From sequence record PV935351.1: 39,767 bases of DNA; one strand, 5' to 3'. Under the pieces are notes generated by a model. It was not told the origin of the DNA. It did no database searches and saw only the letters and a program-made list of their open reading frames with translations. The DNA comes from a phage. Below, piece by piece: positions 2,603 to 38,868 of the stretch (within the stretch, counting starts at the first letter, position 1; each line of letters begins with the position of its first letter). The position numbers were made by a program, and so were the translations under genes.

Positions 2603-5284
2603 ATGAGCGTCATCTCTATTGATAAACACGACTTCTCTGATGTGTCGAACGCCATTGAGCCGTTTAACCTGCTGGCAGACCACTACGGGCAAGACCTTGC
2701 AGTCAAACAGCTTCAGCTTGAGCATGAGGCATACACAGAAGGCGAGCGACGTTTCATCAAAAACCTTGAGCGACAGACTGAGCGCGGGGAACTGGCAGAC
2801 AATCAGGTCGCCAAGCCTTTGATGCAGACTCTGGTGCCTAAGATTGCGCAAGCAGTCAAGGAGTGGCACGAAGGCCAAGACGGGAAGCTGTCAACCTCTC
2901 GTCCTAGCGTAGCGTTCACCATGTTAAGCACCGAAGAGAAGGCCGTCAAGGACCGCTCTCTGCGTATCTCTTGCGAGTCTGCTGCGGTCATCATACTGAA
3001 GGTCATACTCTCCAAGCTGGTAAAGCCTGAAGGGATACCGATTACACCGATGGCCTCAGCGTTAGGTCGCACACTTGAGGACGAAATCCGCTTCGGTCGC
3101 ATCCGTGACAAGGAGAAGGAGCACTTCAAGAAGGCGATAGCTGAGAACCTGAACAAGCGAGCTGGGGCATCCTACAAGAAAGCCTACATGCAAGCGGTAG
3201 AGGCATCCATGCTGGAGCAAGGCCAACTGGAAGATGCGTGGGGGACTTGGAGTCCGACCGAAGCGGTACACGTTGGCATCAAGATGCTAGAGATTGTCAT
3301 CCAGTCCACACAACTGGTCGAGCTTAAGCGTTATGGTGCTGGCAATGCGGCGGCTGACGTTGAGATGGTCCACCTGTCAGACTTCTGGGTCAAGAAGATG
3401 GCACAACGAGGATTCAGCCTTGCGGGTATAGCTCCAGTCTACCAGCCTTGCGTCGTTCCACCTAAGCCGTGGACTGGTGTCGTAGGTGGTGGGTACTGGG
3501 CCAAAGGTCGCAGACCGCTACCCCTGATTCGCTTAGGGTCTAAATCAGCGGTGGCACGTTATGAAGACGTATACATGCCTGAAGTCTATGACGCTGTGAA
3601 TATCATCCAGAATACACCTTGGAAAGTGAACAAGAAGGTACTGGACGTGGTGAACATGGTCGAGAAGTTGAACAACACGCCTATTGATGACATCCCTCAG
3701 ATGGAGCCACTGAAGCCTGAAGACTATGCGGGTGAGACTGAGGAGGAACTCAAGGCATGGAAGAAGGCTGCTGCTGGTATCTATCGCCGCGAGAAGGCCC
3801 GACAGTCACGCAGATTATCACTGAGCTTTATCGTTAACCAAGCAAACAAGTTCTCTCAGTTCAAGGCCATCTGGTTCCCGTACAACATGGATTGGCGAGG
3901 TCGTGTCTACGCTGTCCCGATGTTCAACCCTCAGGGTAACGACATGCAGAAGGGTCTACTGACTCTGGCAGTCGGCAAGCCTATTGGTGCTGACGGTTTC
4001 AAATGGCTGAAGGTCCACGGTGCGAACTGTGCGGGTGTCGATAAAGTCACCTTCGAGGAGCGCATCAAGTGGGTGGAAGACAACCACGAAAACATCATTG
4101 CTGCTGCTAAGGCACCGATGGATAGTATTGAGTGGTGGGGCAAGTTAGACTCTCCGTTCTGTTTCCTCGCGTTCTGCTTCGAGTATGCTGGCGTAATGCA
4201 CCACGGCCTGTCTTACTCCTGCTCGCTGCCGATAGCGTTCGATGGGTCCTGCTCTGGTATTCAGCACTTCAGTGCGATGCTTCGTGACCACATCGGTGGA
4301 CATGCAGTAAACCTGACGCCATCCGGTAAGGTACAAGACATCTACCGCATTGTGTCTGACCGCATTGAGGAGGAGCTTAAAGTCCTGCTGATTACAGGTA
4401 CTGACAACGAGATGGACACTCACGAGGACAAGAAAACTGGTGAGAGTACCGAACGTATCAAGCTGGGGACACGAGAGCTGGCCCGTCAGTGGCTGACATA
4501 CGGTATGTCACGCAAGGTCACTAAGCGTTCAGTCATGACTCTGGCCTATGGGTCGAAAGAGTACGGCTTCGCAGACCAAGTTTATGAGGACATCGTGATG
4601 CCAGCGATTGACTCAGGGTCTGGCGCTATGTTCACCGAGCCTAGCCAAGCGTCTCGCTTCATGGCTAAGATGATTTGGGAAGCTGTGAGTGTGACCGTAG
4701 TTGCTGCGGTTGACGCGATGAAGTGGCTTCAAGGTGCTGCCAAGCTGCTGGCTGCTGAGGTGAAGGACAAGAAGACTGGAGAAATCCTGAAGCCTTGCCT
4801 TCCGGTACACTGGGTAACACCTGATGGTTTCCCGGTCTGGCAGGAATACCGCAAGAAGGATACCACTCGTCTGAACCTGATGTTCTTAGGGTCATTCAAC
4901 CTTCAACCTACGGTCAACAAAGGTATGAAGAAGGAGTTGGATAAGCACAAGCAGGAGTCAGGAATTAGCCCGAACTTCGTCCACTCACAAGATGGTAGCC
5001 ATCTCCGCAAGACTGTAGTCCACACTCACCGCAAGTATGGCGTGATGTCATTCGCAGTGATTCACGATAGCTTCGGGACCATCCCGGCTGACGCTGAGTA
5101 TCTGTTCCGTGGCGTCCGTGAGACAATGGTCGAGACCTACCGCGACAACGATGTGCTGCTTGACTTCTACGAGCAGTTTGAATACCAGCTTCACGAGAGC
5201 CAGCGCGACAAGTTGCCTGAGCTTCCGAAGAAAGGTAAACTAAATATCGAGGACATCTTGTCTTCAGACTTTGCATTCGCTTAA
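2603..5284 (+). CDS. 1: T7-type single-subunit DNA-directed RNA polymerase
   Basis: 893 aa; collinear with recalled T7 RNAP, ending in the shared FAFA terminus and including WFPYNMDWRGRVYA, LPIAFDGSCSGIQHFSAMLRD and HDSFGT. Confidence 0.98.
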   Translation: MSVISIDKHDFSDVSNAIEPFNLLADHYGQDLAVKQLQLEHEAYTEGERRFIKNLERQTERGELADNQVAKPLMQTLVPKIAQAVKEWHEGQDGKLSTSRPSVAFTMLSTEEKAVKDRSLRISCESAAVIILKVILSKLVKPEGIPITPMASALGRTLEDEIRFGRIRDKEKEHFKKAIAENLNKRAGASYKKAYMQAVEASMLEQGQLEDAWGTWSPTEAVHVGIKMLEIVIQSTQLVELKRYGAGNAAADVEMVHLSDFWVKKMAQRGFSLAGIAPVYQPCVVPPKPWTGVVGGGYWAKGRRPLPLIRLGSKSAVARYEDVYMPEVYDAVNIIQNTPWKVNKKVLDVVNMVEKLNNTPIDDIPQMEPLKPEDYAGETEEELKAWKKAAAGIYRREKARQSRRLSLSFIVNQANKFSQFKAIWFPYNMDWRGRVYAVPMFNPQGNDMQKGLLTLAVGKPIGADGFKWLKVHGANCAGVDKVTFEERIKWVEDNHENIIAAAKAPMDSIEWWGKLDSPFCFLAFCFEYAGVMHHGLSYSCSLPIAFDGSCSGIQHFSAMLRDHIGGHAVNLTPSGKVQDIYRIVSDRIEEELKVLLITGTDNEMDTHEDKKTGESTERIKLGTRELARQWLTYGMSRKVTKRSVMTLAYGSKEYGFADQVYEDIVMPAIDSGSGAMFTEPSQASRFMAKMIWEAVSVTVVAAVDAMKWLQGAAKLLAAEVKDKKTGEILKPCLPVHWVTPDGFPVWQEYRKKDTTRLNLMFLGSFNLQPTVNKGMKKELDKHKQESGISPNFVHSQDGSHLRKTVVHTHRKYGVMSFAVIHDSFGTIPADAEYLFRGVRETMVETYRDNDVLLDFYEQFEYQLHESQRDKLPELPKKGKLNIEDILSSDFAFA

Positions 5285-5298
5285 CAGGAGAGAGAGTT

Positions 5299-5514
5299 AT
5301 GAAATTTGCACACAAGCAGGCTGGAGTTAATGGTGGGACTCAAATCGTGACCGTAACAGAACACAACGGAAAGGGTCTGGTGAAGACCACGGTCATTCCT
5401 ACCGAAATGTCAAAGCAGCTTAACGTCCCATTCAAGACCCTCGTCTATCTTGTGGAATCCAGCCACGAGAAATACCTGAAAGACGCAGTGACCAAGCTGG
5501 AGCAGACCAAATGA
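5299..5514 (+). CDS. hypothetical protein
   Basis: 71 aa with a strong RBS (AGGAGAGAG); no motif recognised. Confidence 0.55.
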   Translation: MKFAHKQAGVNGGTQIVTVTEHNGKGLVKTTVIPTEMSKQLNVPFKTLVYLVESSHEKYLKDAVTKLEQTK

Positions 5515-5589
5515 CAGACCTACAGTTACTGGCCTTGTGGCTTGGAGCACTAGCAGTATTCACTTTAATCCAACGCAGAAGAGGTTAAC

Positions 5590-5612
5590 CCTAAACTATC
5601 ACTATAGGATTA
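5590..5612 (+). promoter_or_regulatory. phage RNAP promoter
   Basis: CTAAACTATCACTATAGGA, +1 G at 5607. Confidence 0.8.
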
Positions 5613-5662
5613 GACTCAAGGTCATGACTCAAAGTCGTGGCCTTCATGATTAACCCTAACTC
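5611..5662 (+). ncRNA. conserved structured RNA element, copy A (candidate RNase III site)
   Basis: TAGACTCAAGGTCAT, 11 variable nt, GTGGCCTTCATGATTAACCCTAACT; the same element recurs at 12952 and 36562. Confidence 0.55.
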
Positions 5663-5682
5663 ATTCAATCAGGAGCTACACC

Positions 5683-5862
5683 ATGTATCAGAACACTATC
5701 AACTTCGAGCGAATCCGTGAACGTCAGCAGACTGAAGACTACATTCCGAAGGGACGCAAGCTGAACAAGACCAAGCGTGGCGGCGGTGTCAAGGGTGCTT
5801 TCCGTAACGCTGAAGGCAAAGACTCTATGGTAAACCAAGAGAAGTATTTCGTAGGAGCGTAA
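5683..5862 (+). CDS. 1.1: gp1.1-like small basic protein
   Basis: 59 aa; KGRKLNKTKR matches recalled T7 gp1.1; GGAG RBS. Not in the ORF track (under 60 aa). Confidence 0.7.
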   Translation: MYQNTINFERIRERQQTEDYIPKGRKLNKTKRGGGVKGAFRNAEGKDSMVNQEKYFVGA

Positions 5863-5865
5863 GAC

Positions 5866-6117
5866 ATGAGTAAACGTTGGCTATTCGACGCATCCACGAG
5901 CCAGTGGTCAGCGGTAGGCCGGACTCACCGCGCGATGAGTGAGGCAGGACTTGATGTCCTAATGGATTACTCGCCGTTCCCCGGAAAAATTCTGGTCAGA
6001 GTAATTGAAGCAGATGGTGGGAGGCTTCTGGTCTCCAGAGAATTTACCGAAGATGAAATCTTTAACTGTGAGCAATGGTGCTTACAACAATTGAACGCTT
6101 ATAGGAGCTGGAAATAA
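5866..6117 (+). CDS. 1.2: gp1.2-like protein (T7 gp1.2 inhibits host dGTPase)
   Basis: 83 aa, same size and position as T7 gp1.2, ends ...NAYRSWK (T7 ends ...DWK). Confidence 0.7.
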   Translation: MSKRWLFDASTSQWSAVGRTHRAMSEAGLDVLMDYSPFPGKILVRVIEADGGRLLVSREFTEDEIFNCEQWCLQQLNAYRSWK

Positions 6118-7169
6118 TGACAACGACTATCAAAACTAACCCGCACCGCGCTGTAGATTACTCTGAGTCTGGCGTTAAGAAGGCACTGGAAGCAGCCGGG
6201 TCGCTTGAAGCTGAAGTGAAGTACGATGGCGTCCGGTTGAATCTTCCGGTCTTCCCTACTGGTGAGACCCAATGGTTGAGCCGTGAGTCTAAACCTCTCC
6301 CAGCCCTTAGCTGGTTGAACACTTCCGGTCAGGACATAGGAGCTACCAAAGCGAGCGACTGGCGGTGGTTCCTGAAGCAAGCTGGCTATGAAGGGACTGG
6401 TCTGATGATTGATGGCGAGGTCATGGTGAAAGGGGTTGACTTCAACACGTCTTCGGGCCTCATCCGCACGAAGTATGTCAAGTCTAAAAACTACGACTTC
6501 CACGATGGCGATTGGGACCTCAAGTCCAAGACTACTCAGTTCCGGCTGGACCGAGACCATATCAAGGTGGTCGTCTACGGTGTAGTGGACCTTAACGTCA
6601 TCCTTGACCCGAAAGCCGAAGGTCCTATCCATAGCGTCACACGCCTGAAGGCCGAAGCTATCGTCCCTCTCCTCCAGAAATACTTCCCGGAAATCGACTG
6701 GGTTCTGTCTGAGTCACACACGGTCTATGACCTTGAGTCGCTCAGCTCCCTGTACGAAGAGAAGCGGCTGGAAGGACATGAGGGTCTGGTAGTCAAGGAC
6801 CCGCTTGGTAAATACAAGCGTGGCAAGAAGTCAGGCATGTGGAAAATGAAGCCTGAGGAGACCATCGACGGGACCGTGTGTGGCCTAGTGTGGGGGACTC
6901 CGGGCAAGGCTAACGAAGGTAAGGTGATTGGCTTTGAGGTGCTGCTTGAGGATGGCATGGTGGTTAACGCTTGTGGCCTGACTGAAGAACAGAAGGATGA
7001 GTTTACGGAAGCCTGTAACACTGATACATATATCCTCGGTGAAATCAATCCATACGAAGGCTGGCAGTGTGAAGTCCTTTTCATGGAGAGGTTCCCTGAT
7101 GGCTCACTCCGTCACCCTAGCTTCAAGTGCTGGCGCGGGACGGAAGACAACCCGACCGTTAAGAGTTAA
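6117..7169 (+). CDS. 1.3: ATP-dependent DNA ligase
   Basis: 350 aa; adenylation motif I KYDGVR at residues 35-40; T7 gene 1.3 position. Confidence 0.95.
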   Translation: MTTTIKTNPHRAVDYSESGVKKALEAAGSLEAEVKYDGVRLNLPVFPTGETQWLSRESKPLPALSWLNTSGQDIGATKASDWRWFLKQAGYEGTGLMIDGEVMVKGVDFNTSSGLIRTKYVKSKNYDFHDGDWDLKSKTTQFRLDRDHIKVVVYGVVDLNVILDPKAEGPIHSVTRLKAEAIVPLLQKYFPEIDWVLSESHTVYDLESLSSLYEEKRLEGHEGLVVKDPLGKYKRGKKSGMWKMKPEETIDGTVCGLVWGTPGKANEGKVIGFEVLLEDGMVVNACGLTEEQKDEFTEACNTDTYILGEINPYEGWQCEVLFMERFPDGSLRHPSFKCWRGTEDNPTVKS

Positions 7170-7281: not shown

Positions 7282-7542
7282 ATGTTTAAGAACTTAATGT
7301 TCAACCGTTATACCAGTACCTTCCACCTGTCCAACAACCCGTTCGCTTGCATTAAGCGCAACGAGAAGCTGGACTACTTCGGGAAGGTCGTTAAGCTGTC
7401 ACCTACAGTCTACGCTCTGATTACTCAGGGTAAAGCTGAAGAGGCTCGCCAAAAACGTGAGACCAACGTACCTGTAGTCTACACCAAGTGGCCTCGCGTT
7501 CGTCTGTTTATTGAGTTCGTGAAGGAGGTGATCAATGGTTAA
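7282..7542 (+). CDS. hypothetical protein (gene 1.6 position)
   Basis: 86 aa; AAGGAGG RBS. Confidence 0.65.
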   Translation: MFKNLMFNRYTSTFHLSNNPFACIKRNEKLDYFGKVVKLSPTVYALITQGKAEEARQKRETNVPVVYTKWPRVRLFIEFVKEVING

Positions 7543-7975
7543 GGTGGGGGATACAGTTAAATATGTTGGACCAATTGGAGCCCACATGGGACGCTCCTGT
7601 GGCAAGGTGATAATGGTTAAGAATGAGCATGTGGCTGTTGTTAAGTGGCCCCATTCATCTGAACCACTCACTCACTCCATTAGTTCCTTAAGTATTACCA
7701 AGCAGGCGCAGTCCGAGCCGATAACCATAGGTCAGGAAGATAGCGTCCGTAAGCCATCTCACTATCAGGTCTTTGACGGTGTGGAATCCATTGAGATTAT
7801 CGCTCGGTCAATGACTGTCAGCGAGTTCCGTGGCTTCTGCATGGGTAACGTCCTTAAGTATCGACTCCGGGCTGGTAAGAAGTCCGAGCTGGCTACTATG
7901 GAGAAGGACCTAAACAAAGCAGCCTTCTACCAGGAGCTGTTCGACCTGCATAAAGGTAAGTGTTATGACGTCTAG
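7535..7975 (+). CDS. 1.7: gp1.7-like protein (nucleotide kinase family, C-terminal homology only)
   Basis: 146 aa; the C-terminal 80 aa (KPSHYQVFDGVESIEIIARSMTV...LKYRLRAGKKSELA...KCY) match recalled T7 gp1.7; the N-terminal 65 aa differ and lack the Cys-rich motifs. Confidence 0.75.
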   Translation: MVKVGDTVKYVGPIGAHMGRSCGKVIMVKNEHVAVVKWPHSSEPLTHSISSLSITKQAQSEPITIGQEDSVRKPSHYQVFDGVESIEIIARSMTVSEFRGFCMGNVLKYRLRAGKKSELATMEKDLNKAAFYQELFDLHKGKCYDV

Positions 7976-8387
7976 TGATTGCATTGACCATGACTACAAC
8001 TGCAAGAGCTACGCAAATGTGTATTCCAAAGCTCATGGTAGAAACTTTGGTCTTCACCGAATAGTTCTAGCGGAGAAGTTAGGAGTCGATGTGGCTGAAA
8101 TGAAGGGAGTAGCGATGCACTCTTGTGACAATAAGAGATGTGTCAATCCTGAACACTTACAGTTAGGGACCCAGAGTCAGAACGTACTGGATGCACACTC
8201 AAGAGGACTGGTAAACGTGGTGTCTGGAGAAAAGCACCCAATGATCAAGCTCACAGACGAGCAGATTGCATATGTTCTGGGTAGTACGCTAGGCGCGAGA
8301 GCGATTGGCAGAGAGCTGGGAGTTTCACATTCGTTAATAAGCAGGTTGAGAAATGGAAAAGCAAGAGCTTCCCAGCGAGTGGGCTGA
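7965..8387 (+). CDS. HNH homing endonuclease
   Basis: 140 aa; HNH core HSCDNKRCVNPEHLQLGTQSQN; C-terminal HTH-like segment; AT-richer with AGA/AGG codons. Confidence 0.8.
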   Translation: MTSSDCIDHDYNCKSYANVYSKAHGRNFGLHRIVLAEKLGVDVAEMKGVAMHSCDNKRCVNPEHLQLGTQSQNVLDAHSRGLVNVVSGEKHPMIKLTDEQIAYVLGSTLGARAIGRELGVSHSLISRLRNGKARASQRVG

Positions 8388-10787: not shown

Positions 10788-11003
10788 ATGATTAAACTTA
10801 TTGAATTTCTTGGTCGTCTGGTGGTGCGTGGTTATCGTCGTGCTGCGATACTGGAACGAAAGGTAGAAAAGAAGACTGCTGACAGTGCGGCTGATGCTGC
10901 TGCTCTGGCCGACAAGCTGACCATCGAGTCACTGGAAGCTGGCATGAAGGCTCGTCAGGCTGATACCAAAGCTGACCAATTGGCTCAGTTCTTCAAAGCC
11001 TAA
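10788..11003 (+). CDS. hypothetical protein
   Basis: 71 aa, hydrophobic N-terminus then Ala/Lys-rich helix; AAGGAGA RBS. Confidence 0.6.
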   Translation: MIKLIEFLGRLVVRGYRRAAILERKVEKKTADSAADAAALADKLTIESLEAGMKARQADTKADQLAQFFKA

Positions 11004-11021
11004 ACTATCACCTTAGGGATG
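10999..11021 (+). promoter_or_regulatory. degenerate phage-promoter-like sequence upstream of gene 4
   Basis: CTAAACTATCACCTTAGGGA; two changes at -4/-3 relative to the other promoters. Confidence 0.35.
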
Positions 11022-11041
11022 GGACCGCTAGTCCTGTCCCT
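11015..11041 (+). other. stable hairpin in the gene 4 leader
   Basis: AGGGATGGGA / TCCTGTCCCT 10-bp stem (two G-U pairs), 7-nt loop, followed by TTGTT. Confidence 0.5.
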
Positions 11042-11068
11042 TTGTTCGCATTTGTGATTAAGGAGTGA

Positions 11069-12948
<1,880 letters not shown>

Positions 12949-12951
12949 GTC

Positions 12952-12998
12952 TAGACTCAAGGTCATTCACATCGAGTGGCCTTTATGATTAGACTAAA
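12952..12998 (+). ncRNA. conserved structured RNA element, copy B (candidate RNase III site)
   Basis: TAGACTCAAGGTCAT, 9 variable nt, GTGGCCTTTATGATTAGACTAAAC. Confidence 0.55.
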
Positions 12999-13011
12999 CG
13001 GAGGATTAACC

Positions 13012-13413
13012 ATGTTTGATTGCATTGAGTGGACCGGGTGTCGAGATAGTTTCGGCTATGGTATGCGAAAGGTCAACGGGAAGGTCCGTAGACTACATCT
13101 GATAGCCTTCGAGGAGGCGAATGGTCCGATACCAGAGGGAATGGTCGTGAGGCACAAATGTGACAACCCTGCGTGCTACAATCCAGAACACTTGGAGCTG
13201 GGGACAAGGGCTGAGAACAATCACGATAGAGACGTTAGAGGTCGAACCGCTAAAGGCGTGCGACATGGAAGCTCTAAGCTTACACCTGAAATAGTACAAG
13301 AGGCCAAGGCTCTTTACGCAGTAGGTGGCTGGACTCACCGCTCATTAGGTAAGAAGTATGGAGTGGGTCACCGCACACTGGCTAGAGCAATTGGAGGAAA
13401 AACATGGACTTAA
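13012..13413 (+). CDS. HNH homing endonuclease
   Basis: 134 aa from ATG 13012 (GGAGG RBS); HKCDNPACYNPEHLELGTRAENNHD core; C-terminal HTH-like segment; AGA/AGG codons. Confidence 0.8.
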   Translation: MFDCIEWTGCRDSFGYGMRKVNGKVRRLHLIAFEEANGPIPEGMVVRHKCDNPACYNPEHLELGTRAENNHDRDVRGRTAKGVRHGSSKLTPEIVQEAKALYAVGGWTHRSLGKKYGVGHRTLARAIGGKTWT

Positions 13414-15572
13414 GTAACGTATATGGGTCTGACATCGAGACCAACGGTCTCCTTGATACAGTCTCCCAGTTTCACTGTGGGGTCCTGATTAACGCCGAGT
13501 CGAATGAGACCCTTAAGTATGGGGTAGCTCCGATGGTCGGTATCGTCGGTGGCTTCAAAGAGTATGTACAGAAGGTGGAAGAGATTGCCGCATCACCTGA
13601 TGGTATGCTGGTATTCCACAACGGTATCAACTATGACGTCCCGGCTATTGACAAGCTGAAGCGTCTGTACTTTGGGAAACGCTTTAACTTCCCGAAACAC
13701 AAGATGATTGATACCTTGGTGCTTGGGCGCTTGATGTATCCAAACATTAAGTTCTCAGACATGGGCGCAGTGAAAGCTGGTCGTCTGCCACCTAAGATGA
13801 TGGGACGCCAGTCTCTTGAGGCTTGGGGCTATCGTCTCGGTGAGATGAAAGGTGAGTACAAACACGATTACGTTGCCAAGTGCAAGGCTGAAGGTATCGA
13901 ATATAAGGCTGGGGACGAATGGTTGTTCCCATCTCAGGAGATGCTAGACTATAACGTTCAAGACGTTGTGGTCACACTGGCGTTGTTCAAGAAGTTCCTG
14001 ACTGACAAGTATTACTTCCAGTCTGAACAGTTCGCTTTCGACCAGATTTATGCGTTGCGTCTGGAACATGATGCTGCGTGGACCTGTGCGAAGATGGAAC
14101 GTAACGGCTATCCGATGAACACCGAGATGGTCGAAGGCTTATATCGTGAACTCACCGTCAAACGTGCAGAGTTGTTGGACAAGCTGCGTTCGACTTTCGG
14201 TAGCTGGTATGCACCAAAGGGAGGCAAGGAGTTCTTCAAGCACCCACGGACAGGCAAGGACCTTCCGAAGTATCCGCGAGTCGTGTATCCTAAGGTCGGG
14301 TCAGTATTCAAGAAGCCGAAGAACAAAGCTCAACGCTTAGGTCTGGAACCTTGCGAGTTCGACTCACGAGACACGATGGAGGGAGCGCCGTTCACACCTA
14401 TCACTTACGTTGAGTTTAATCCGGGAAGCGGGGACCACTTAGCGAAAGTCCTGATGGAGCGTGGCTGGGAGCCTGTGGACTTCACTGACACCGGGAAACC
14501 TGTAGTCGATGACGAGACGTTAGAACACGTTAAGTTACCAGACGAAGAGGCTCAGGCTTGCGTAGAGCTGGTCCGTGAGTACCTGGTAGTCCAGAAGCGC
14601 ATCGGTCAGGCTGCTGAAGGTAAGAACGCATGGTTGAAACTTGTAGGTCCAGACGGACGTATGCACGGTTCAATCAACCCATGCGGTGCAGTAACAGGAC
14701 GTGCGACTCATAGTTCACCAAACATGGCTCAGGTCCCTGCTAACGGTGCTCCGTATGGTGAGATTTGCCGGGGTGCTTTCGGTGCAGCTTGGAACAAGAC
14801 GGATGGTAAGCCAGACCCTTGGATTCAAGTGGGTGTGGATGCTTCAGGTCTTGAGCTTCGTTGTCTGGGGAACCGAGCGGCTCCGTTTGATGGTGGTGCC
14901 TATGCGAAGACTGTGGTAGAAGGCGACATCCACTGGGCCAACGCAGTAAACGCTGGGTTAGCACCTAACGTCCCACGCGATAAGGCGAACCACGACCATG
15001 ATGCTTTCCGTAACAACGCTAAGACGTTCATCTATGCGTTCCTGTATGGTGCAGGGGCCGCTAAGATTGGACTGATAGTAGGCGGTGGTAAGAAGGAAGG
15101 TTCAGCTCTCATGAAGAAATTCATTGAGGGTACACCAGCCATCAAAGACCTCAGGGAAGCTGTGAGTAGTACGTTAATCTCAGACTCTAAGTGGGTGGAC
15201 GGAGAGAACATCGTCAAGTGGAAACGCCGTTGGTTGCGTGGACTTGATGGTCGCCGTATCCACATCCGGTCGCCACACTCAGCACTGAACGCCTTACTTC
15301 AAGGCGATGGTGCGGTAGTCTGTAAGCACTGGATTGTCGAGACTGAACGTATGCTTGAAGAGGCAGGGTATGTTCACGGCTGGGAAGGAGACTTTGCGTA
15401 CATGGCATGGGTTCACGACGAATTGCAGATTGCGTGCCGTACTCAGGAGATTGCCGAAGAAGTAGTCAAGATTGCTCAACTTGCTATGCGTAAGGTGGGT
15501 GAGTTCTATAACTTTAAATGTGTCCTTGATACCGAAGGTAAGATTGGACCAACGTGGAAGGAGTGTCACTAA
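13404..15572 (+). CDS. 5: DNA polymerase (family A, T7 gp5 type)
   Basis: 722 aa; N-terminal exonuclease motif SDIETNGL; LEAWGYRLGEMKGEY, KTFIYAFLYGAG and YMAWVHDE match recalled T7 gp5. Confidence 0.98.
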   Translation: MDLSNVYGSDIETNGLLDTVSQFHCGVLINAESNETLKYGVAPMVGIVGGFKEYVQKVEEIAASPDGMLVFHNGINYDVPAIDKLKRLYFGKRFNFPKHKMIDTLVLGRLMYPNIKFSDMGAVKAGRLPPKMMGRQSLEAWGYRLGEMKGEYKHDYVAKCKAEGIEYKAGDEWLFPSQEMLDYNVQDVVVTLALFKKFLTDKYYFQSEQFAFDQIYALRLEHDAAWTCAKMERNGYPMNTEMVEGLYRELTVKRAELLDKLRSTFGSWYAPKGGKEFFKHPRTGKDLPKYPRVVYPKVGSVFKKPKNKAQRLGLEPCEFDSRDTMEGAPFTPITYVEFNPGSGDHLAKVLMERGWEPVDFTDTGKPVVDDETLEHVKLPDEEAQACVELVREYLVVQKRIGQAAEGKNAWLKLVGPDGRMHGSINPCGAVTGRATHSSPNMAQVPANGAPYGEICRGAFGAAWNKTDGKPDPWIQVGVDASGLELRCLGNRAAPFDGGAYAKTVVEGDIHWANAVNAGLAPNVPRDKANHDHDAFRNNAKTFIYAFLYGAGAAKIGLIVGGGKKEGSALMKKFIEGTPAIKDLREAVSSTLISDSKWVDGENIVKWKRRWLRGLDGRRIHIRSPHSALNALLQGDGAVVCKHWIVETERMLEEAGYVHGWEGDFAYMAWVHDELQIACRTQEIAEEVVKIAQLAMRKVGEFYNFKCVLDTEGKIGPTWKECH

Positions 15573-15730
15573 TGGCTAAAACTTATAGCGAGCAGGAGGT
15601 CAAAGACCTGATGCGGTCAGCTTGGTGGTGTGGACACGAGGAGTCTCGTTATAGTCCAAACCTCAGTGGACAGTGCAGTCGAGACATTCGTGAAATTCTG
15701 AAAGAACATAACGAAGAAGGAGAAGACTAA
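15572..15730 (+). CDS. hypothetical small protein
   Basis: 52 aa, ATG overlaps the gene 5 stop (TAATG), translationally coupled. Confidence 0.5.
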   Translation: MAKTYSEQEVKDLMRSAWWCGHEESRYSPNLSGQCSRDIREILKEHNEEGED

Positions 15731-16014
15731 TGGCTATTACTAAACGTATTCGTGTGAGTTTTGACCTGAAGATGGTTGTTAGCTCAAAGAGAGAAGATAC
15801 AGTGTGTCGCCAACTGGCTGAGATGACTAAAGCCTACGCTGATGGTGAGAAGCTGGATGGGCTTCAGATGGCTTTGGTCAAAGCAGCAATAGAGTCAGGC
15901 CCTGAGTCTGCCATTGAAATTGTCACCAAGAAGATCATCAAGGAGGAGCTGGTAGACGCCTTTGGTGAGGGTCAGTCCGGTGTGTCCAACCTGCGATTCG
16001 AGGTCAAGCAATGA
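15730..16014 (+). CDS. 5.5: gp5.5-like protein (T7 gp5.5 binds host H-NS)
   Basis: 94 aa; MAITKRIRVSFDL resembles the recalled T7 gp5.5 N-terminus (MAMTKRFKVSFDV). Confidence 0.75.
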   Translation: MAITKRIRVSFDLKMVVSSKREDTVCRQLAEMTKAYADGEKLDGLQMALVKAAIESGPESAIEIVTKKIIKEELVDAFGEGQSGVSNLRFEVKQ

Positions 16015-36658: not shown

Positions 36659-37108
36659 ATGCTCGAATTTTTAAAGAGAGCGGCTCCGTGGTTACTTGCA
36701 GCAGTGATGTTTGCTGGTGGCTACCACACCGCTAACAATAAGTGGGAGGCTAAGGTCAATGCAGAATACACCTCGAATCTTAAGGCATCGGAAGATACAA
36801 GGCTTGCTGTCCAAGCTGAAGTCAACAAAGTGTCCAAACGGTTTCAGGACGAAATGTCCTCGCTGGAAGGCAGCACTGATAGGATTATTGCTGACCTTAA
36901 GTCTGACAATAAGCGGCTGCTCATCCGAGTCAAACCTACGAGTGGAACCACGCAAAGTGACGGTCGATGCTTCATTGATGGTTACGCCGAACTTGACGAA
37001 CGAGATGCTAAACGTCTTATCACCATCGGAGTGAAAGGAGACAAGTGGATTAAGGCCCTTCAAGACACTGTGATAGCCTTACAGCAAGAGAAGGAGGTGA
37101 CGCATTGA
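36659..37108 (+). CDS. 18.5: i-spanin (Rz-like)
   Basis: 149 aa; N-terminal TM helix ([14 protein letters not shown]), coiled-coil periplasmic region. Confidence 0.9.
36759..37034 (+). CDS. 18.7: o-spanin (Rz1-like lipoprotein) embedded in the +1 frame of gene 18.5
   Basis: About 91 aa; lipobox LTISGC; PRWKAALIG...SGC..SES...VDASLMV.PNLT.EMLNV matches recalled T7 gp18.7. Confidence 0.85.
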   Translation: MQNTPRILRHRKIQGLLSKLKSTKCPNGFRTKCPRWKAALIGLLLTLSLTISGCSSESNLRVEPRKVTVDASLMVTPNLTNEMLNVLSPSE

Positions 37109-38868
37109 GTAAAGACTTAGTGGCGCGTCAGGCGCTAATGACTACCCGTATGAAGGCAGACTTCGTGTTCTTCCTGTTCGTCCTGTGGAAAGCTCTTAGC
37201 CTACCAGTACCAACCAGATGCCAGATAGATATGGCCCGCAAGCTATCGGCTGGGGACAACAGGCGTTTCATCCTACAGGCGTTCCGTGGTATCGGGAAGT
37301 CCTTCATTACGTGTGCATTCGTAGTCTGGAAACTATGGAACAACCCAGACTTGAAGTTCATGATTGTGTCGGCCTCAAAGGAACGAGCCGATGCGAACTC
37401 CATCTTCATCAAGCGAATCATCGACCTCATGCCTCAGCTTCGGGAACTCAAACCTAAGCAGGGGCAGCGAGATGCGGTTATCAGCTTCGACGTTGGACCA
37501 GCCAAGCCAGACCACTCACCTTCGGTTAAGTCCGTTGGTATCACTGGTCAGTTGACTGGTAGTCGTGCTGACCTCCTGATTGCCGATGACGTGGAGGTTC
37601 CAAACAACTCGGCGACTCAGGCTGCACGAGACCGTCTGTCAGAGCTTGTAAAAGAGTTCGACGCTATCCTGAAGCCGGGAGGTACAATCATCTATCTGGG
37701 TACTCCTCAGAACGAGATGACCTTATATCGTGAGCTGGAAGGCCGTGGATACACCACTACCATCTGGCCCGCTCGCTACCCACGCGATAAGAAGGACTGG
37801 CAGTCTTACGGCGACCGTCTGGCACCGATGCTTCAGGCAGAGCTTGAAGAGGACCCTGAGTCCTTCTACTGGCGTCCGACAGATGAAGTACGATTCGATG
37901 ATACGGACCTGAAGGAACGTGAGCTGTCCTATGGTAAAGCTGGCTTCGCTCTACAGTTCATGCTTAACCCGAACCTGAGTGATGCTGAGAAGTACCCTCT
38001 GAAGCTCCGTGACCTTATCGTAGCCGACTTGGACCCAGCGTCTAGCCCAATGGTATACCAATGGCTTCCTAACCCTCAGAACAAGCGTGAGGACGTTCCT
38101 AACGTTGGACTCATGGGTGACTCATACCACACGTATCAGACTGTAGGTTCTGCCTTCAGTTCGTACACCCAGAAGATTCTGGTCATTGACCCTAGTGGTC
38201 GTGGTAAGGATGAAACTGGCTATGCGGTACTATATCAGCTCAACGGCTACATCTTCGCTATGGAAGTTGGAGGTATGCGTGGTGGTTATGAGGACTCTAC
38301 GCTGGAAGCCTTGGCTAAGATTGGTCGTAAGTGGAAGGTCAACGAATACGTCATTGAGGGTAACTTCGGTGATGGTATGTACCTTGAGCTATTCAAGCCT
38401 GTAGCTGCCCGTATCCATCCTGCGGCTGTAACTGAAGTGAAGAGTAAGGGTCAGAAAGAACTCCGCATCTGTGACGTTCTGGAGCCTATCATGGGGTCTC
38501 ACCGACTTATCGTCAACGCTGCTGCTATCGTCCAAGACTACCAGACAGCCTCTGACAAGGATGGTGTGCGTAACCCTATCTACTCTCTCTTCTACCAGAT
38601 GACCCGTATCTCTCGTGAACGTGGAGCCTTGGCACACGATGACCGACTTGATGCGCTGGCTATCGGTGTACAGTTCTTCGTTGAGTCTATGGCTAAGGAT
38701 GCCAACAAAGGCGAACGTGAAGTCACTGAGGAGTGGCTGGAGGAACAGATGGAGAATCCACGGAAAGGCTTCGAGTCCATCCACACTGAGTTCTGGGACA
38801 ATGGGGTCCGGGTAACTCACGATACGGACGACGAGCTGGGACTAGGGTCCTACGTTACGTTCCACTAG
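37105..38868 (+). CDS. 19: terminase large subunit
   Basis: 587 aa from TTG 37105 (AAGGAGG RBS); [82 protein letters not shown] match recalled T7 gp19. Confidence 0.97.

What the first reader, a model, noticed from the sequence alone, without database searches (positions are those of the whole stretch)
12952..13413. HNH homing endonuclease inserted between primase-helicase and DNA polymerase
The ORF at 13012-13413 has a canonical HNH core (HKCDNPACYNPEHLELGTRAENNHD) plus a C-terminal HTH-like segment. It uses AGA/AGG arginine codons that are rare in the flanking replication genes and overlaps the DNA polymerase start. This is typical of a selfish mobile endonuclease inserted next to an essential gene.
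Basis: partly seen in the sequence, partly recalled or inferred. Interest (0 to 1): 0.5.

Follow-up and report, generated by a model that had tools for sequence, protein, structure and literature searches.

The report
Mobile HNH endonuclease at polymerase gene start
A small selfish nuclease gene of a well-known kind has inserted into the first codons of this T7-like phage's DNA polymerase gene; it is ordinary in kind, but related phages show the uninvaded, invaded and nuclease-lost forms of the site side by side.

Summary
The window is a Kayfunavirus (K1F/T7-like) genome. ORF 13012-13413 encodes a 133-aa HNH_3 nuclease (Pfam E 1.5e-17) with a C-terminal helix-turn-helix, an I-HmuI-like predicted fold and 48% identity to T7 gp7.7. 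AGA/AGG make up 6 of its 13 Arg codons, against 4 of 60 in genes 4 and 5. It overlaps the gene 5 start by 10 nt.

The element is not simply intergenic. It sits inside codon 3 of gene 5, uses gene 5's own ribosome-binding site and ATG, and carries a replacement Shine-Dalgarno sequence, ATG and recoded N-terminus for the polymerase in its 3' end.

Only 13 of 222 related GenBank records carry it. About 200 have an empty allele (MFDLKSIWGS). Three have no HNH but keep the recoded polymerase start (MDLSNVYGS).

The flanks show no fixed differences, and the window's flanks resemble empty-site phages more than other carriers. HNH alleles diverge to dS>2 with dN/dS 0.03-0.09.

Best reading: an active free-standing homing endonuclease cassette of a known kind, already annotated "predicted homing endonuclease" in phage CR44b. 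Cleavage and homing are untested. Interest is low to moderate.

The parts
12959..12983 (+). Conserved hairpin (AAGGTCATTCACATCGAGTGGCCTT) upstream of the gene 5 ribosome-binding site. It is context only and not part of the insertion.
   Evidence: Present in both empty and occupied alleles. RNA fold of 12945-13030 gives -21.9 kcal/mol, z -1.7. The 12940-13019 stretch that contains it overlaps a feature annotated 'terminator' in MZ726794.
13000..13014 (+). Original gene 5 translation start (SD GGAGGA 13000-13005, spacer TTAACC, ATG 13012), now used by the HNH ORF.
   Evidence: In empty-site phages (pO2, CY1, YZ1, LM33_P1, ST1749) the identical sequence starts the DNA polymerase CDS.
13012..13413 (+). 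HNH endonuclease ORF (133 aa), T7 gp7.7 family.
   Evidence: Pfam HNH_3 E 1.5e-17. 48% identity over the full length to T7 gp7.7, E 7e-38. Intact in all 11 carrier phages compared, dN/dS 0.03-0.09 on divergent pairs.
13153..13227 (+). HNH catalytic core (H48...N69...D72; motif HKCDNPACYNPEHLELGTRAENNHD).
13276..13398 (+). C-terminal three-helix HTH DNA-binding domain.
13020..13427 (+). Element-specific cassette: 408 nt that replace 19 nt (CCTTAAGAGTATCTGGGGT) of the empty allele, a net gain of 389 nt.
   Evidence: Junction comparison of 11 occupied and 6 empty alleles.
13393..13406 (+). Replacement Shine-Dalgarno (GGAGGA) and ATG for the polymerase, embedded in the last HNH codons (IGGKTWT*).
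   Evidence: GGAGG is kept in all carrier alleles although synonymous sites elsewhere are saturated. A 72%-identical variant keeps an SD (GAGGAG) through different amino acids, LRSETWI.
13410..13427 (+). Recoded polymerase codons 3-8 (pol N-terminus MDLSNVYGS instead of MFDLKSIWGS). This is the presumed immunity block.
   Evidence: 11 of 18 positions differ, fixed between all occupied or HNH-lost alleles and all empty alleles. About 4 kb of flanks show no fixed differences.
13404..15572 (+). Gene 5 DNA polymerase (722 aa), uninterrupted, restarted from inside the HNH 3' end.
   Evidence: Pfam DNA_pol_A 5.4e-36. 13404 is the first start codon after an in-frame stop. D10/E12 fall in the SDIE motif, which aligns with SDIE at residues 4-7 of T7 gp5.

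Best explanation
This is a free-standing HNH homing endonuclease cassette of the T7 gp7.7 family with an I-HmuI-like architecture: an N-terminal beta region, an HNH core and a C-terminal HTH. [quoted passage not shown] It has no promoter of its own. It is read from the gene 4 transcript and translated from the polymerase's original ribosome-binding site and ATG. Its last codons encode a new Shine-Dalgarno sequence and ATG, followed by a recoded polymerase N-terminus, so the essential polymerase is still made. Inferred mechanism: in a mixed infection with a relative carrying the empty allele (ATGTTTGACCTTAAGAGTATCTGGGGTTCT), the enzyme nicks or cuts at or near that sequence. Phage recombination then repairs the break from the carrier genome and copies in the 408-nt cassette with almost no flanking DNA. 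The carrier is protected because the site is split and 11 of its 18 downstream bases are changed. The HNH can later be lost by recombination between the two similar start regions (GGAGGAttAACcATG and GGAGGAgaAAC-ATG). That leaves an HNH-less allele with the recoded, presumably resistant polymerase start. Shown here: domain identity, catalytic residues, the junctions, the three alleles, sporadic distribution, decoupled phylogeny, purifying selection and codon bias. Inferred: cleavage, its site, strand specificity, homing and immunity.
Against: No cleavage or homing data exist for this protein or for T7 gp7.7; none was found in 5 literature searches. Free-standing endonucleases often cut hundreds of bp from their gene (PMC2988022), so the recoded block need not be the target. 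I-HmuI-type enzymes can nick both carrier and empty DNA, so sequence-based immunity is an assumption. T7-like phages recombine so freely that the mosaic distribution could arise without endonuclease drive. Only 6% of GenBank relatives carry the element, which is low for a strongly driving element. The direction HNH-lost from occupied, rather than occupied from a pre-existing MDLSNVYGS allele, is not proven.
Confidence: 0.72

Rival explanations
1. The protein is kept mainly because it benefits the phage, for example as a DNA-end-binding anti-defence factor or a weapon against co-infecting relatives. It spreads by ordinary homologous recombination rather than by self-promoted homing.
For: Strong purifying selection persists over deep divergence (dS>2, dN/dS 0.03-0.09), which a purely selfish element maintains only if it keeps moving. 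T7 HNH endonucleases, tested directly for gp3.8 with 7.7 among the three genes deleted, attenuate the GAPS4 defence independently of nuclease activity (bioRxiv 10.1101/2025.09.07.674715). The flanks are mosaic throughout.
Against: Only 13 of 222 relatives keep it and it has been lost cleanly at least twice. The tight association with one site and with a recoded junction block is what homing predicts and what a trans-acting benefit does not require. The catalytic residues are invariant.
Confidence: 0.15
2. The ORF is an old, vertically inherited accessory gene of the genus that most lineages have lost. There is no current mobility.
For: The same junction is shared by alleles as divergent as 72-75% nucleotide identity, so the association with this site is old. 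Clean deletion products exist.
Against: A simple deletion of the cassette gives the MDLSNVYGS allele (3 records), not the common MFDLKSIWGS allele (about 200 records), which differs at 11 of 18 bases. The window's flanks are closer to empty-site phages than to other carriers, and a carrier and a non-carrier belong to the same species. Codon usage is foreign.
Confidence: 0.08
3. The ORF is a decaying, inactive remnant of a homing endonuclease that persists only because deleting it would remove the polymerase start signals.
For: The polymerase SD and ATG lie inside the ORF, so imprecise deletions would be lethal. This retention logic is described for T4 segG and gene 32 (PMC2988022).
Against: The ORF is intact in all 11 carriers compared. 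dN/dS is 0.03-0.09 over its whole length, not only at the 3' end, and all catalytic and zinc-ligand-like residues are kept.
Confidence: 0.03

Closest known systems
T7 gene 7.7 protein (HNH endonuclease, uncharacterised; NP_041994)
   Same: 48% identity over the whole 130-133 aa (E 7e-38). Same HNH_3 plus C-terminal HTH layout, same ...TW... C-terminus, and it abuts or overlaps the start of the next essential gene.
   Different: It occupies a different genomic site: in T7 it lies between gene 7.3 and gene 8, here inside the start of gene 5. T7 gp7.7 has no demonstrated target either. The gene is dispensable in T7.
I-HmuI (group I intron-encoded HNH nicking homing endonuclease of Bacillus phage SPO1 DNA polymerase gene; PDB 1u3e)
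   Different: Identity is only 15-20% and there is no sequence-level PDB hit. I-HmuI lies inside a self-splicing intron, whereas here there is no intron and the gene is free-standing. That I-HmuI nicks one strand and cuts both intron-plus and intron-minus DNA is recalled from the literature and was not tested here.
T4 free-standing homing endonucleases (mobE, segG and others; 'intronless homing')
   Same: They are promoter-less cassettes inserted next to essential DNA-metabolism genes and read from host-gene transcripts. They are sporadically distributed among relatives, and some carry expression signals for the downstream essential gene inside the endonuclease gene (PMC2988022, PMC2790892).
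   Different: Those sit in intergenic regions and embed promoters. This one sits inside the first codons of the target gene, takes its translation start, and embeds a replacement SD, ATG and N-terminal codons. Any co-conversion here looks extremely short, within 3 nt of the cassette.
Kayfunavirus HEG between the lysis gene and terL (Hafnia phage Ca ORF48, CR44b homologue)
   Same: Same genus, similar size (a 397-bp cassette), overlaps the start of the downstream essential gene, and spontaneous precise-deletion variants are observed (PMC8861465).
   Different: It occupies a different site, and the window has no copy there. Its relationship to the window HNH was not compared.
CR44b gene '7.7B' (CDM21552, 'predicted homing endonuclease')
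   Same: It is the same gene at the same site, 90% nucleotide identity over 12940-13420, so the basic annotation already exists in GenBank.
   Different: It is only an annotation. The genome announcement does not discuss it. The junction structure, the three alleles and the embedded translation start are not described in anything I found.

Membership tests
HNH / His-Me finger nucleases (Pfam HNH_3, PF13392) | Sequence match to the beta-beta-alpha-metal core, with the catalytic His and the metal-positioning Asn | tested here: met
   Pfam HNH_3 E 1.5e-17, 63.4 bits against a cutoff of 24.8, residues 27-70. H48, D51 and N69 are invariant in 35 homologues.
HNH / His-Me finger nucleases (Pfam HNH_3, PF13392) | Fold resembles a solved HNH homing endonuclease | tested here: met
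HNH / His-Me finger nucleases (Pfam HNH_3, PF13392) | Metal-dependent DNA cleavage | not testable with these tools
   This needs purified protein.
Free-standing homing endonuclease gene (intronless homing) | Sporadic presence or absence at one fixed site among close relatives | tested here: met
   13 of 222 records carry it, all at the gene 5 start. A carrier and a non-carrier occur within one species.
Free-standing homing endonuclease gene (intronless homing) | Not embedded in an intron or intein | tested here: met
   No Rfam intron hit in 12500-15800 at E<=1. The ORF is in a different frame from pol and ends in a stop codon, and pol is a continuous 722-aa ORF.
Free-standing homing endonuclease gene (intronless homing) | Element history is decoupled from that of the flanking genes | tested here: met
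   The window's flanks are 98.7-99.7% identical to empty-site phages and 93-97% to other carriers. HNH alleles run from 72% to 98% identity while the flanks stay at 92-100%.
Free-standing homing endonuclease gene (intronless homing) | The carrier allele differs from the empty allele at the presumed target, giving self-immunity | tested here: inconclusive
   A fixed block of 11 differences in 18 nt at 13410-13427, together with the split site, is the only fixed difference in about 4 kb. Whether this is the recognition site is unknown.
Free-standing homing endonuclease gene (intronless homing) | Site-specific cleavage of the empty allele and super-Mendelian inheritance in mixed infection | not testable with these tools
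   This needs in vitro cleavage and phage crosses.
T7 gp7.7 family | Full-length sequence similarity | tested here: met
   BLASTP gives 47.7% identity over 130 aa, E 7e-38.
T7 gp7.7 family | Same genomic position (between gene 7.3 and gene 8) | tested here: not met
   Here it lies at the gene 5 start. A 46%-identical metagenomic homologue does sit before gene 8.
Intron-encoded HNH endonucleases (I-HmuI, I-PfoP3I type) | The ORF is located within a self-splicing group I intron | tested here: not met
   No group I intron model matches. The boundaries are a translation start and a stop/start overlap.
Terminase-associated HNH packaging factors (HK97 gp74 type) | Adjacent to terminase genes and conserved in all relatives | tested here: not met
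   It is located at the polymerase gene, about 24 kb from terL (37105-38868), and is absent from about 94% of relatives.

The most novel reading that the evidence does not exclude
The cassette may be a self-contained 'gene-start replacement' module. On this reading it invades the 5' end of an essential gene without an intron or intein by swapping in its own SD, ATG and N-terminal codons for that gene. This HNH clade would then specifically track the 5' end of family-A polymerase genes, next to the Exo I (DxE) motif, across unrelated podophages: a 45%-identical homologue overlaps the polymerase start in a different 41-kb phage. The naive, occupied and resistant-empty alleles co-circulating in culturable E. 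coli phages would then give a complete, experimentally tractable homing-endonuclease life cycle.
Probability: 0.35. Interest if true: 0.5.

Novelty: new member of a known kind. Interest (0 to 1): 0.3.

Why it matters
This adds little conceptually. Free-standing HNH homing endonucleases next to replication genes are routine in T7- and T4-like phages, and this gene is already labelled as one in phage CR44b.

The useful part is practical. Public genomes of easily grown coliphages contain all three predicted states of one homing site: susceptible, occupied and endonuclease-lost but recoded. The boundaries are defined to the base pair, and translation of an essential gene depends on the element. 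That makes a clean system for measuring homing, immunity, loss rates and the cost or benefit of such elements in T7-like phages.

It also matters for annotating and engineering therapeutic Kayfunavirus phages. The polymerase start differs between alleles, and deleting the HNH carelessly would remove the polymerase ribosome-binding site.

Tried and rejected
- **PDB sequence search:** the HNH gave no hit at E<=1, so I used structure prediction and fold search instead.
- **NCBIfam:** no match.
- **Intron test:** an Rfam scan of 12500-15800 found only a chance snoRNA hit (E 0.79), so the element is not intron-encoded.
- **Own promoter or terminator:** there is no phage promoter between gene 4 and the HNH. 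The promoter consensus ACTATCACNNTAGG matches exactly at 11 other sites. The 2-mismatch match inside the HNH at 13217 is within chance expectation. The sigma-70 and terminator scans were at background level.
- **Long co-conversion tract:** I looked for polymorphisms linked to HNH presence in 1.95 kb upstream and 2.15 kb downstream and found none.
- **IMG/VR scans for the three junctions:** these gave too few Kayfunavirus contigs (7 empty, 2 occupied, 0 HNH-lost) to improve the frequencies.
- **First MAFFT alignment of the junction:** it misplaced the gap, so I defined the junctions by anchored motif extraction instead.
- **Terminase-associated HNH role:** considered and rejected on position and distribution.
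- **Pseudogene:** considered and rejected on dN/dS.
- **CR44b genome announcement:** it does not mention the gene.

Full report
**What the window is**

Megablast of 11000-16000 and of 1-25000 finds hundreds of Kayfunavirus (K1F-like, T7-family) podophage genomes at 92-97% identity, and none is identical. The gene order is the T7 one:
- Primase-helicase (gene 4) at 11072-12772, with Pfam Helic-prim_T7_N, Toprim and DnaB_C domains.
- A small gene-4.3-like ORF at 12784-12948 (PHROG 13039).
- The ORF in question at 13012-13413.
- Family-A DNA polymerase (gene 5) at 13404-15572.

Exact matches to the phage promoter consensus ACTATCACNNTAGG occur at 11 places, including 11004 upstream of gene 4. None lies between gene 4 and the ORF. 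The ORF is therefore read from the gene 4 transcript.

**Checking the observation**

- **The ORF and its domains.** The ORF exists and encodes 133 aa with the quoted motif. It matches Pfam HNH_3 at E 1.5e-17, well above the curated cutoff, and several PHROG HNH families at about 1e-29.
- **Conserved residues.** In an alignment with 34 homologues of 35-89% identity, C4, H48, C50, D51, C55, H60 and N69 are invariant.
- **Predicted structure.** An AlphaFold2 model built on that alignment has mean pLDDT 87.7. It shows a beta-rich N-terminal part, the HNH core, and three C-terminal helices at residues 92-127.
- **Codon usage.** AGA/AGG make up 6 of 13 Arg codons. The figure is 4 of 60 in genes 4+5 (Fisher p=0.0014) and 47 of 492 in 17 other genes. 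The ORF's CAI-like value (0.57) is second-lowest of the 19 genes scored, after the other HNH ORF (0.55), and its GC3 (0.47) is among the lowest.
- **Overlap with the polymerase.** The polymerase ATG at 13404 lies 10 nt before the end of the HNH stop codon at 13413, in another frame.

All parts of the observation are confirmed.

**Where exactly the element sits**

In phages without the ORF (pO2, CY1, YZ1, LM33_P1, ST1749), the polymerase CDS starts at the very ATG that starts the HNH here, behind the identical ribosome-binding site.

Three alleles can be written out:
- **Empty allele:** GGAGGATTAACC ATG TTT GAC CTT AAG AGT ATC TGG GGT TCT GAC ATC GAG. The polymerase starts MFDLKSIWGSDIE.
- **Occupied allele** (the window and ten other phages): GGAGGATTAACC ATG TTT GA|T TGC ... 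ATT GGA GGA RAA ACA TGG ACT TAA| GT AAC GTA TAT GGG TCT GAC ATC GAG. The polymerase restarts at the ATG inside ACA TGG and begins MDLSNVYGSDIE.
- **HNH-lost allele:** described further below.

So the insertion lies inside codon 3 of gene 5, not between genes. Element-specific DNA spans 13020-13427 (408 nt). It replaces 19 nt of the empty allele, a net gain of 389 nt.

The HNH has taken over the polymerase's translation start. It supplies a substitute in its own last codons: GGAGGA at 13393-13398, five bases before the ATG at 13404.

That Shine-Dalgarno sequence is kept in every carrier allele, although synonymous sites elsewhere in the gene are saturated. In a 72%-identical metagenomic variant it is kept as GAGGAG through different amino acids, LRSETWI instead of IGGETWT. 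This points to selection on the embedded start signal itself.

The residues just after the recoded stretch, SDIE, align with SDIE at residues 4-7 of T7 gp5. These are the Exo I active-site residues D5 and E7 of T7 gp5, which I recall from the literature. The element therefore sits in a short, tolerant N-terminal extension right next to a highly constrained motif.

**Distribution and history**

A blastn search with 12940-13420 hits 222 phage records. Only 13 of them, representing 10 distinct phages, contain the HNH. The others match only the first 80 nt. Carriers infect E. coli, Citrobacter rodentium, Providencia rettgeri and Salmonella Typhi. One carrier (101118UKE1) belongs to the same ICTV species as a non-carrier (LM33_P1).

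I aligned 1.95 kb upstream and 2.15 kb downstream for 10 carriers and 5 empties:
- No position in the flanks is fixed between the two groups.
- The window's flanks next to the junction are 98.7-99.7% identical to the empties but 93-97% identical to the other carriers.
- Along the region, HNH identity to the window falls from 98% (CLB_P1) to 72% (Bas105, BDX03P1). The adjoining polymerase sequence of the same phages stays at 92-100%.

The only fixed carrier-versus-empty differences are the cassette itself and 11 of the 18 bases at 13410-13427.

The ORF is intact in all 11 carrier phages compared. One (phiYIO1-1) has an in-frame 11-aa duplication in the HTH. Pairwise dN/dS is 0.03-0.09 for divergent pairs, with dS from 0.5 to more than 2. 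The protein is therefore under strong purifying selection, and its alleles are much older than the flanks they now sit in.

**The third allele**

A search with 13390-13480 turned up three records that lack the HNH but have the recoded polymerase start directly behind the original ribosome-binding site:
- EcoIv39_Milel: GGAGGATTAACC ATG GAC TTA AGT AAC GTA TAC GGG TCT. EcoIv41_Bia gave the same hit statistics as Milel (query 4-91, 95.5%), but I did not read its sequence.
- TM1 (MT808983): the same, but with GGAGGATTAAC, one C fewer.

This is what recombination between the two similar start regions of the occupied allele would leave (GGAGGAttAACcATG and GGAGGAgaAAC-ATG). The TM1 and Milel junctions differ by one base, and their recoded blocks match different carrier subtypes (GTATAT versus GTATAC). 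This suggests independent losses. The reverse order cannot be excluded: an old MDLSNVYGS allele may later have received the HNH.

A simple deletion of the cassette cannot produce the common empty allele. Repeated loss from a universal ancestor therefore does not explain the roughly 200 empty-allele records.

Spontaneous precise loss of a comparable 397-bp HEG cassette that overlaps terL has been seen in another Kayfunavirus, Hafnia phage Ca (PMC8861465).

**Left junction in a second lineage**

In the Ro45lw lineage, the empty polymerase starts ATG ATT GAC (MIDLQNIWGS). The HNH variants found in that background (Bas105, BDX03P1) start ATG ATT GAC TGT. The first two or three codons thus follow the local polymerase allele. 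This is expected if the left crossover lies at or just after codon 3.

**Family context**

The closest named relative is T7 gp7.7: 48% identity over the full length, E 7e-38. T7 gp3.8 matches only the core.

The protein database holds 265 homologues at E<=1e-3, nearly all with HNH_3 and 130-220 aa long. Sampling their contigs gave these positions:
- The 72% variant is at the same polymerase site.
- A 45% homologue overlaps the start of a family-A polymerase in an unrelated 41-kb podophage.
- Others sit before an ERF recombinase gene, before T7-type gene 8 (the T7 7.7 position), or elsewhere. They usually abut or overlap the next gene's start.

The window itself has a second family member at 7965-8387, which is also sporadic among relatives. 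No intron model matches the region, so the element is free-standing.

**Mechanism and how sure it is**

The best-supported reading is a free-standing HNH homing endonuclease cassette. It cuts or nicks the empty gene 5 start of co-infecting relatives and is copied in by recombinational repair. Self-protection would come from the split and recoded site. Occasional loss would occur through the duplicated start regions.

- **Shown:** the anatomy, distribution, selection and decoupled history.
- **Inferred:** cleavage, its position and strand specificity, immunity and drive.

Three caveats apply. T4 free-standing endonucleases often cut far from their genes (PMC2988022). As I recall from the literature, I-HmuI-type enzymes can nick both alleles. 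T7-like phages recombine freely.

An argument for a junction-proximal target is that nothing else within about 2 kb on either side distinguishes carriers from empties.

The main rival is that the protein is retained for a benefit to the phage. A 2025 preprint reports that T7 HNH endonucleases attenuate the GAPS4 defence without needing nuclease activity. This could coexist with homing.

**Comparison with what is known, and verdict**

Free-standing HNH and GIY-YIG endonuclease genes next to replication genes are textbook features of T4- and T7-like phages. They are read from host-gene transcripts and sometimes carry expression signals for the downstream gene (PMC2988022, PMC2790892). Papers on T7-like phages routinely list HNH genes as the variable elements (PMC4925675).

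This very gene is annotated "predicted homing endonuclease (7.7B)" in Citrobacter phage CR44b, though the announcement paper does not discuss it.

The finding is therefore a correct identification of a known kind of element. The modest additions are these:
- The insertion is inside the polymerase's first codons.
- The element embeds the replacement translation start and N-terminus.
- The susceptible, occupied and endonuclease-lost alleles all circulate in sequenced, culturable phages.

I found no experimental work on this enzyme or on T7 gp7.7 as a nuclease.

Noticed in passing
window 7965-8387 (+): There is a second HNH_3 plus HTH ORF (140 aa, 36% identical to the one studied). Its start overlaps the end of the DUF3310 ORF at 7535-7975. 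AGA/AGG are 8 of its 10 Arg codons, and its CAI-like value is the lowest of the 19 genes scored. Only 2 of the 219 related records matched (Salmonella phages CHRF_10022 and CHRF_20120) were seen to cover it, so it looks like another sporadic homing-type cassette.
   Followed up: partly
window 12959-12983 (+): A conserved hairpin (AAGGTCATTCACATCGAGTGGCCTT) lies just upstream of the gene 5 ribosome-binding site, in both empty and occupied alleles. The 12940-13019 stretch that contains it overlaps a feature annotated 'terminator' in one relative. It may be a T7-type RNase III or processing site. The fold z-score is only -1.7.
   Followed up: partly
L005 (Providencia phage EPr2) 1265-1630, 3574-3975, 6166-6447: This relative carries three HNH_3 ORFs around the replication genes. 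One overlaps the start of gene 4 (as T7 gene 3.8 does), one is the element studied here, and one lies just after gene 5.
   Followed up: no
L003 (CLB_P1) 3965-6731; L021 (Ro45lw) 3498-6267; L008 (CHX131) 3966-6456: In these relatives the polymerase gene is additionally split near its 3' end by the K1F-type gp5.3 HNH gene (a putative group I intron). The window's polymerase is uninterrupted at 722 aa. One polymerase gene can therefore host two different endonuclease insertions (PMC4925675).
   Followed up: no
L007 (phiYIO1-1) 3574-4008: The HNH orthologue has an in-frame 33-nt tandem duplication (GEKYGVGHRTI twice) inside the HTH recognition region, giving 144 aa.
   Followed up: no
L021 (Ro45lw) about 3420-3445; L010/L011 upstream of the HNH: The Ro45lw, Bas105 and BDX03P1 lineage has an extra 12 nt that creates a phage-promoter-like sequence (CTATCACTGTAGGATAGA) just upstream of the hairpin. 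The window lacks this, so transcription input to gene 5 and the HNH differs between lineages.
   Followed up: no
L032 3001-3417 and 3414-5918: A 45%-identical homologue (P0025) overlaps, by ATGA, the start of an 834-aa family-A polymerase in an unrelated 41-kb podophage contig, five codons before its Exo I motif (IDLET). This hints that the HNH clade repeatedly targets polymerase 5' ends.
   Followed up: partly
L031 2840-3402: In the metagenomic contig with the 72%-identical HNH variant, the 63-nt intergenic hairpin and ribosome-binding-site region is missing. The HNH start overlaps the stop of the gene-4.3-like ORF (ATGA), so the left context of the element is not the same in all lineages.
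   Followed up: no
window 2516, 5595, 7237, 8616, 11004, 17215, 20036, 21023, 25431, 32707, 38968 (+): There are eleven exact matches to the phage RNA polymerase promoter core ACTATCACNNTAGG, all on the + strand. At up to 2 mismatches there are 16 matches, against 3.2 expected by chance.
   Followed up: no
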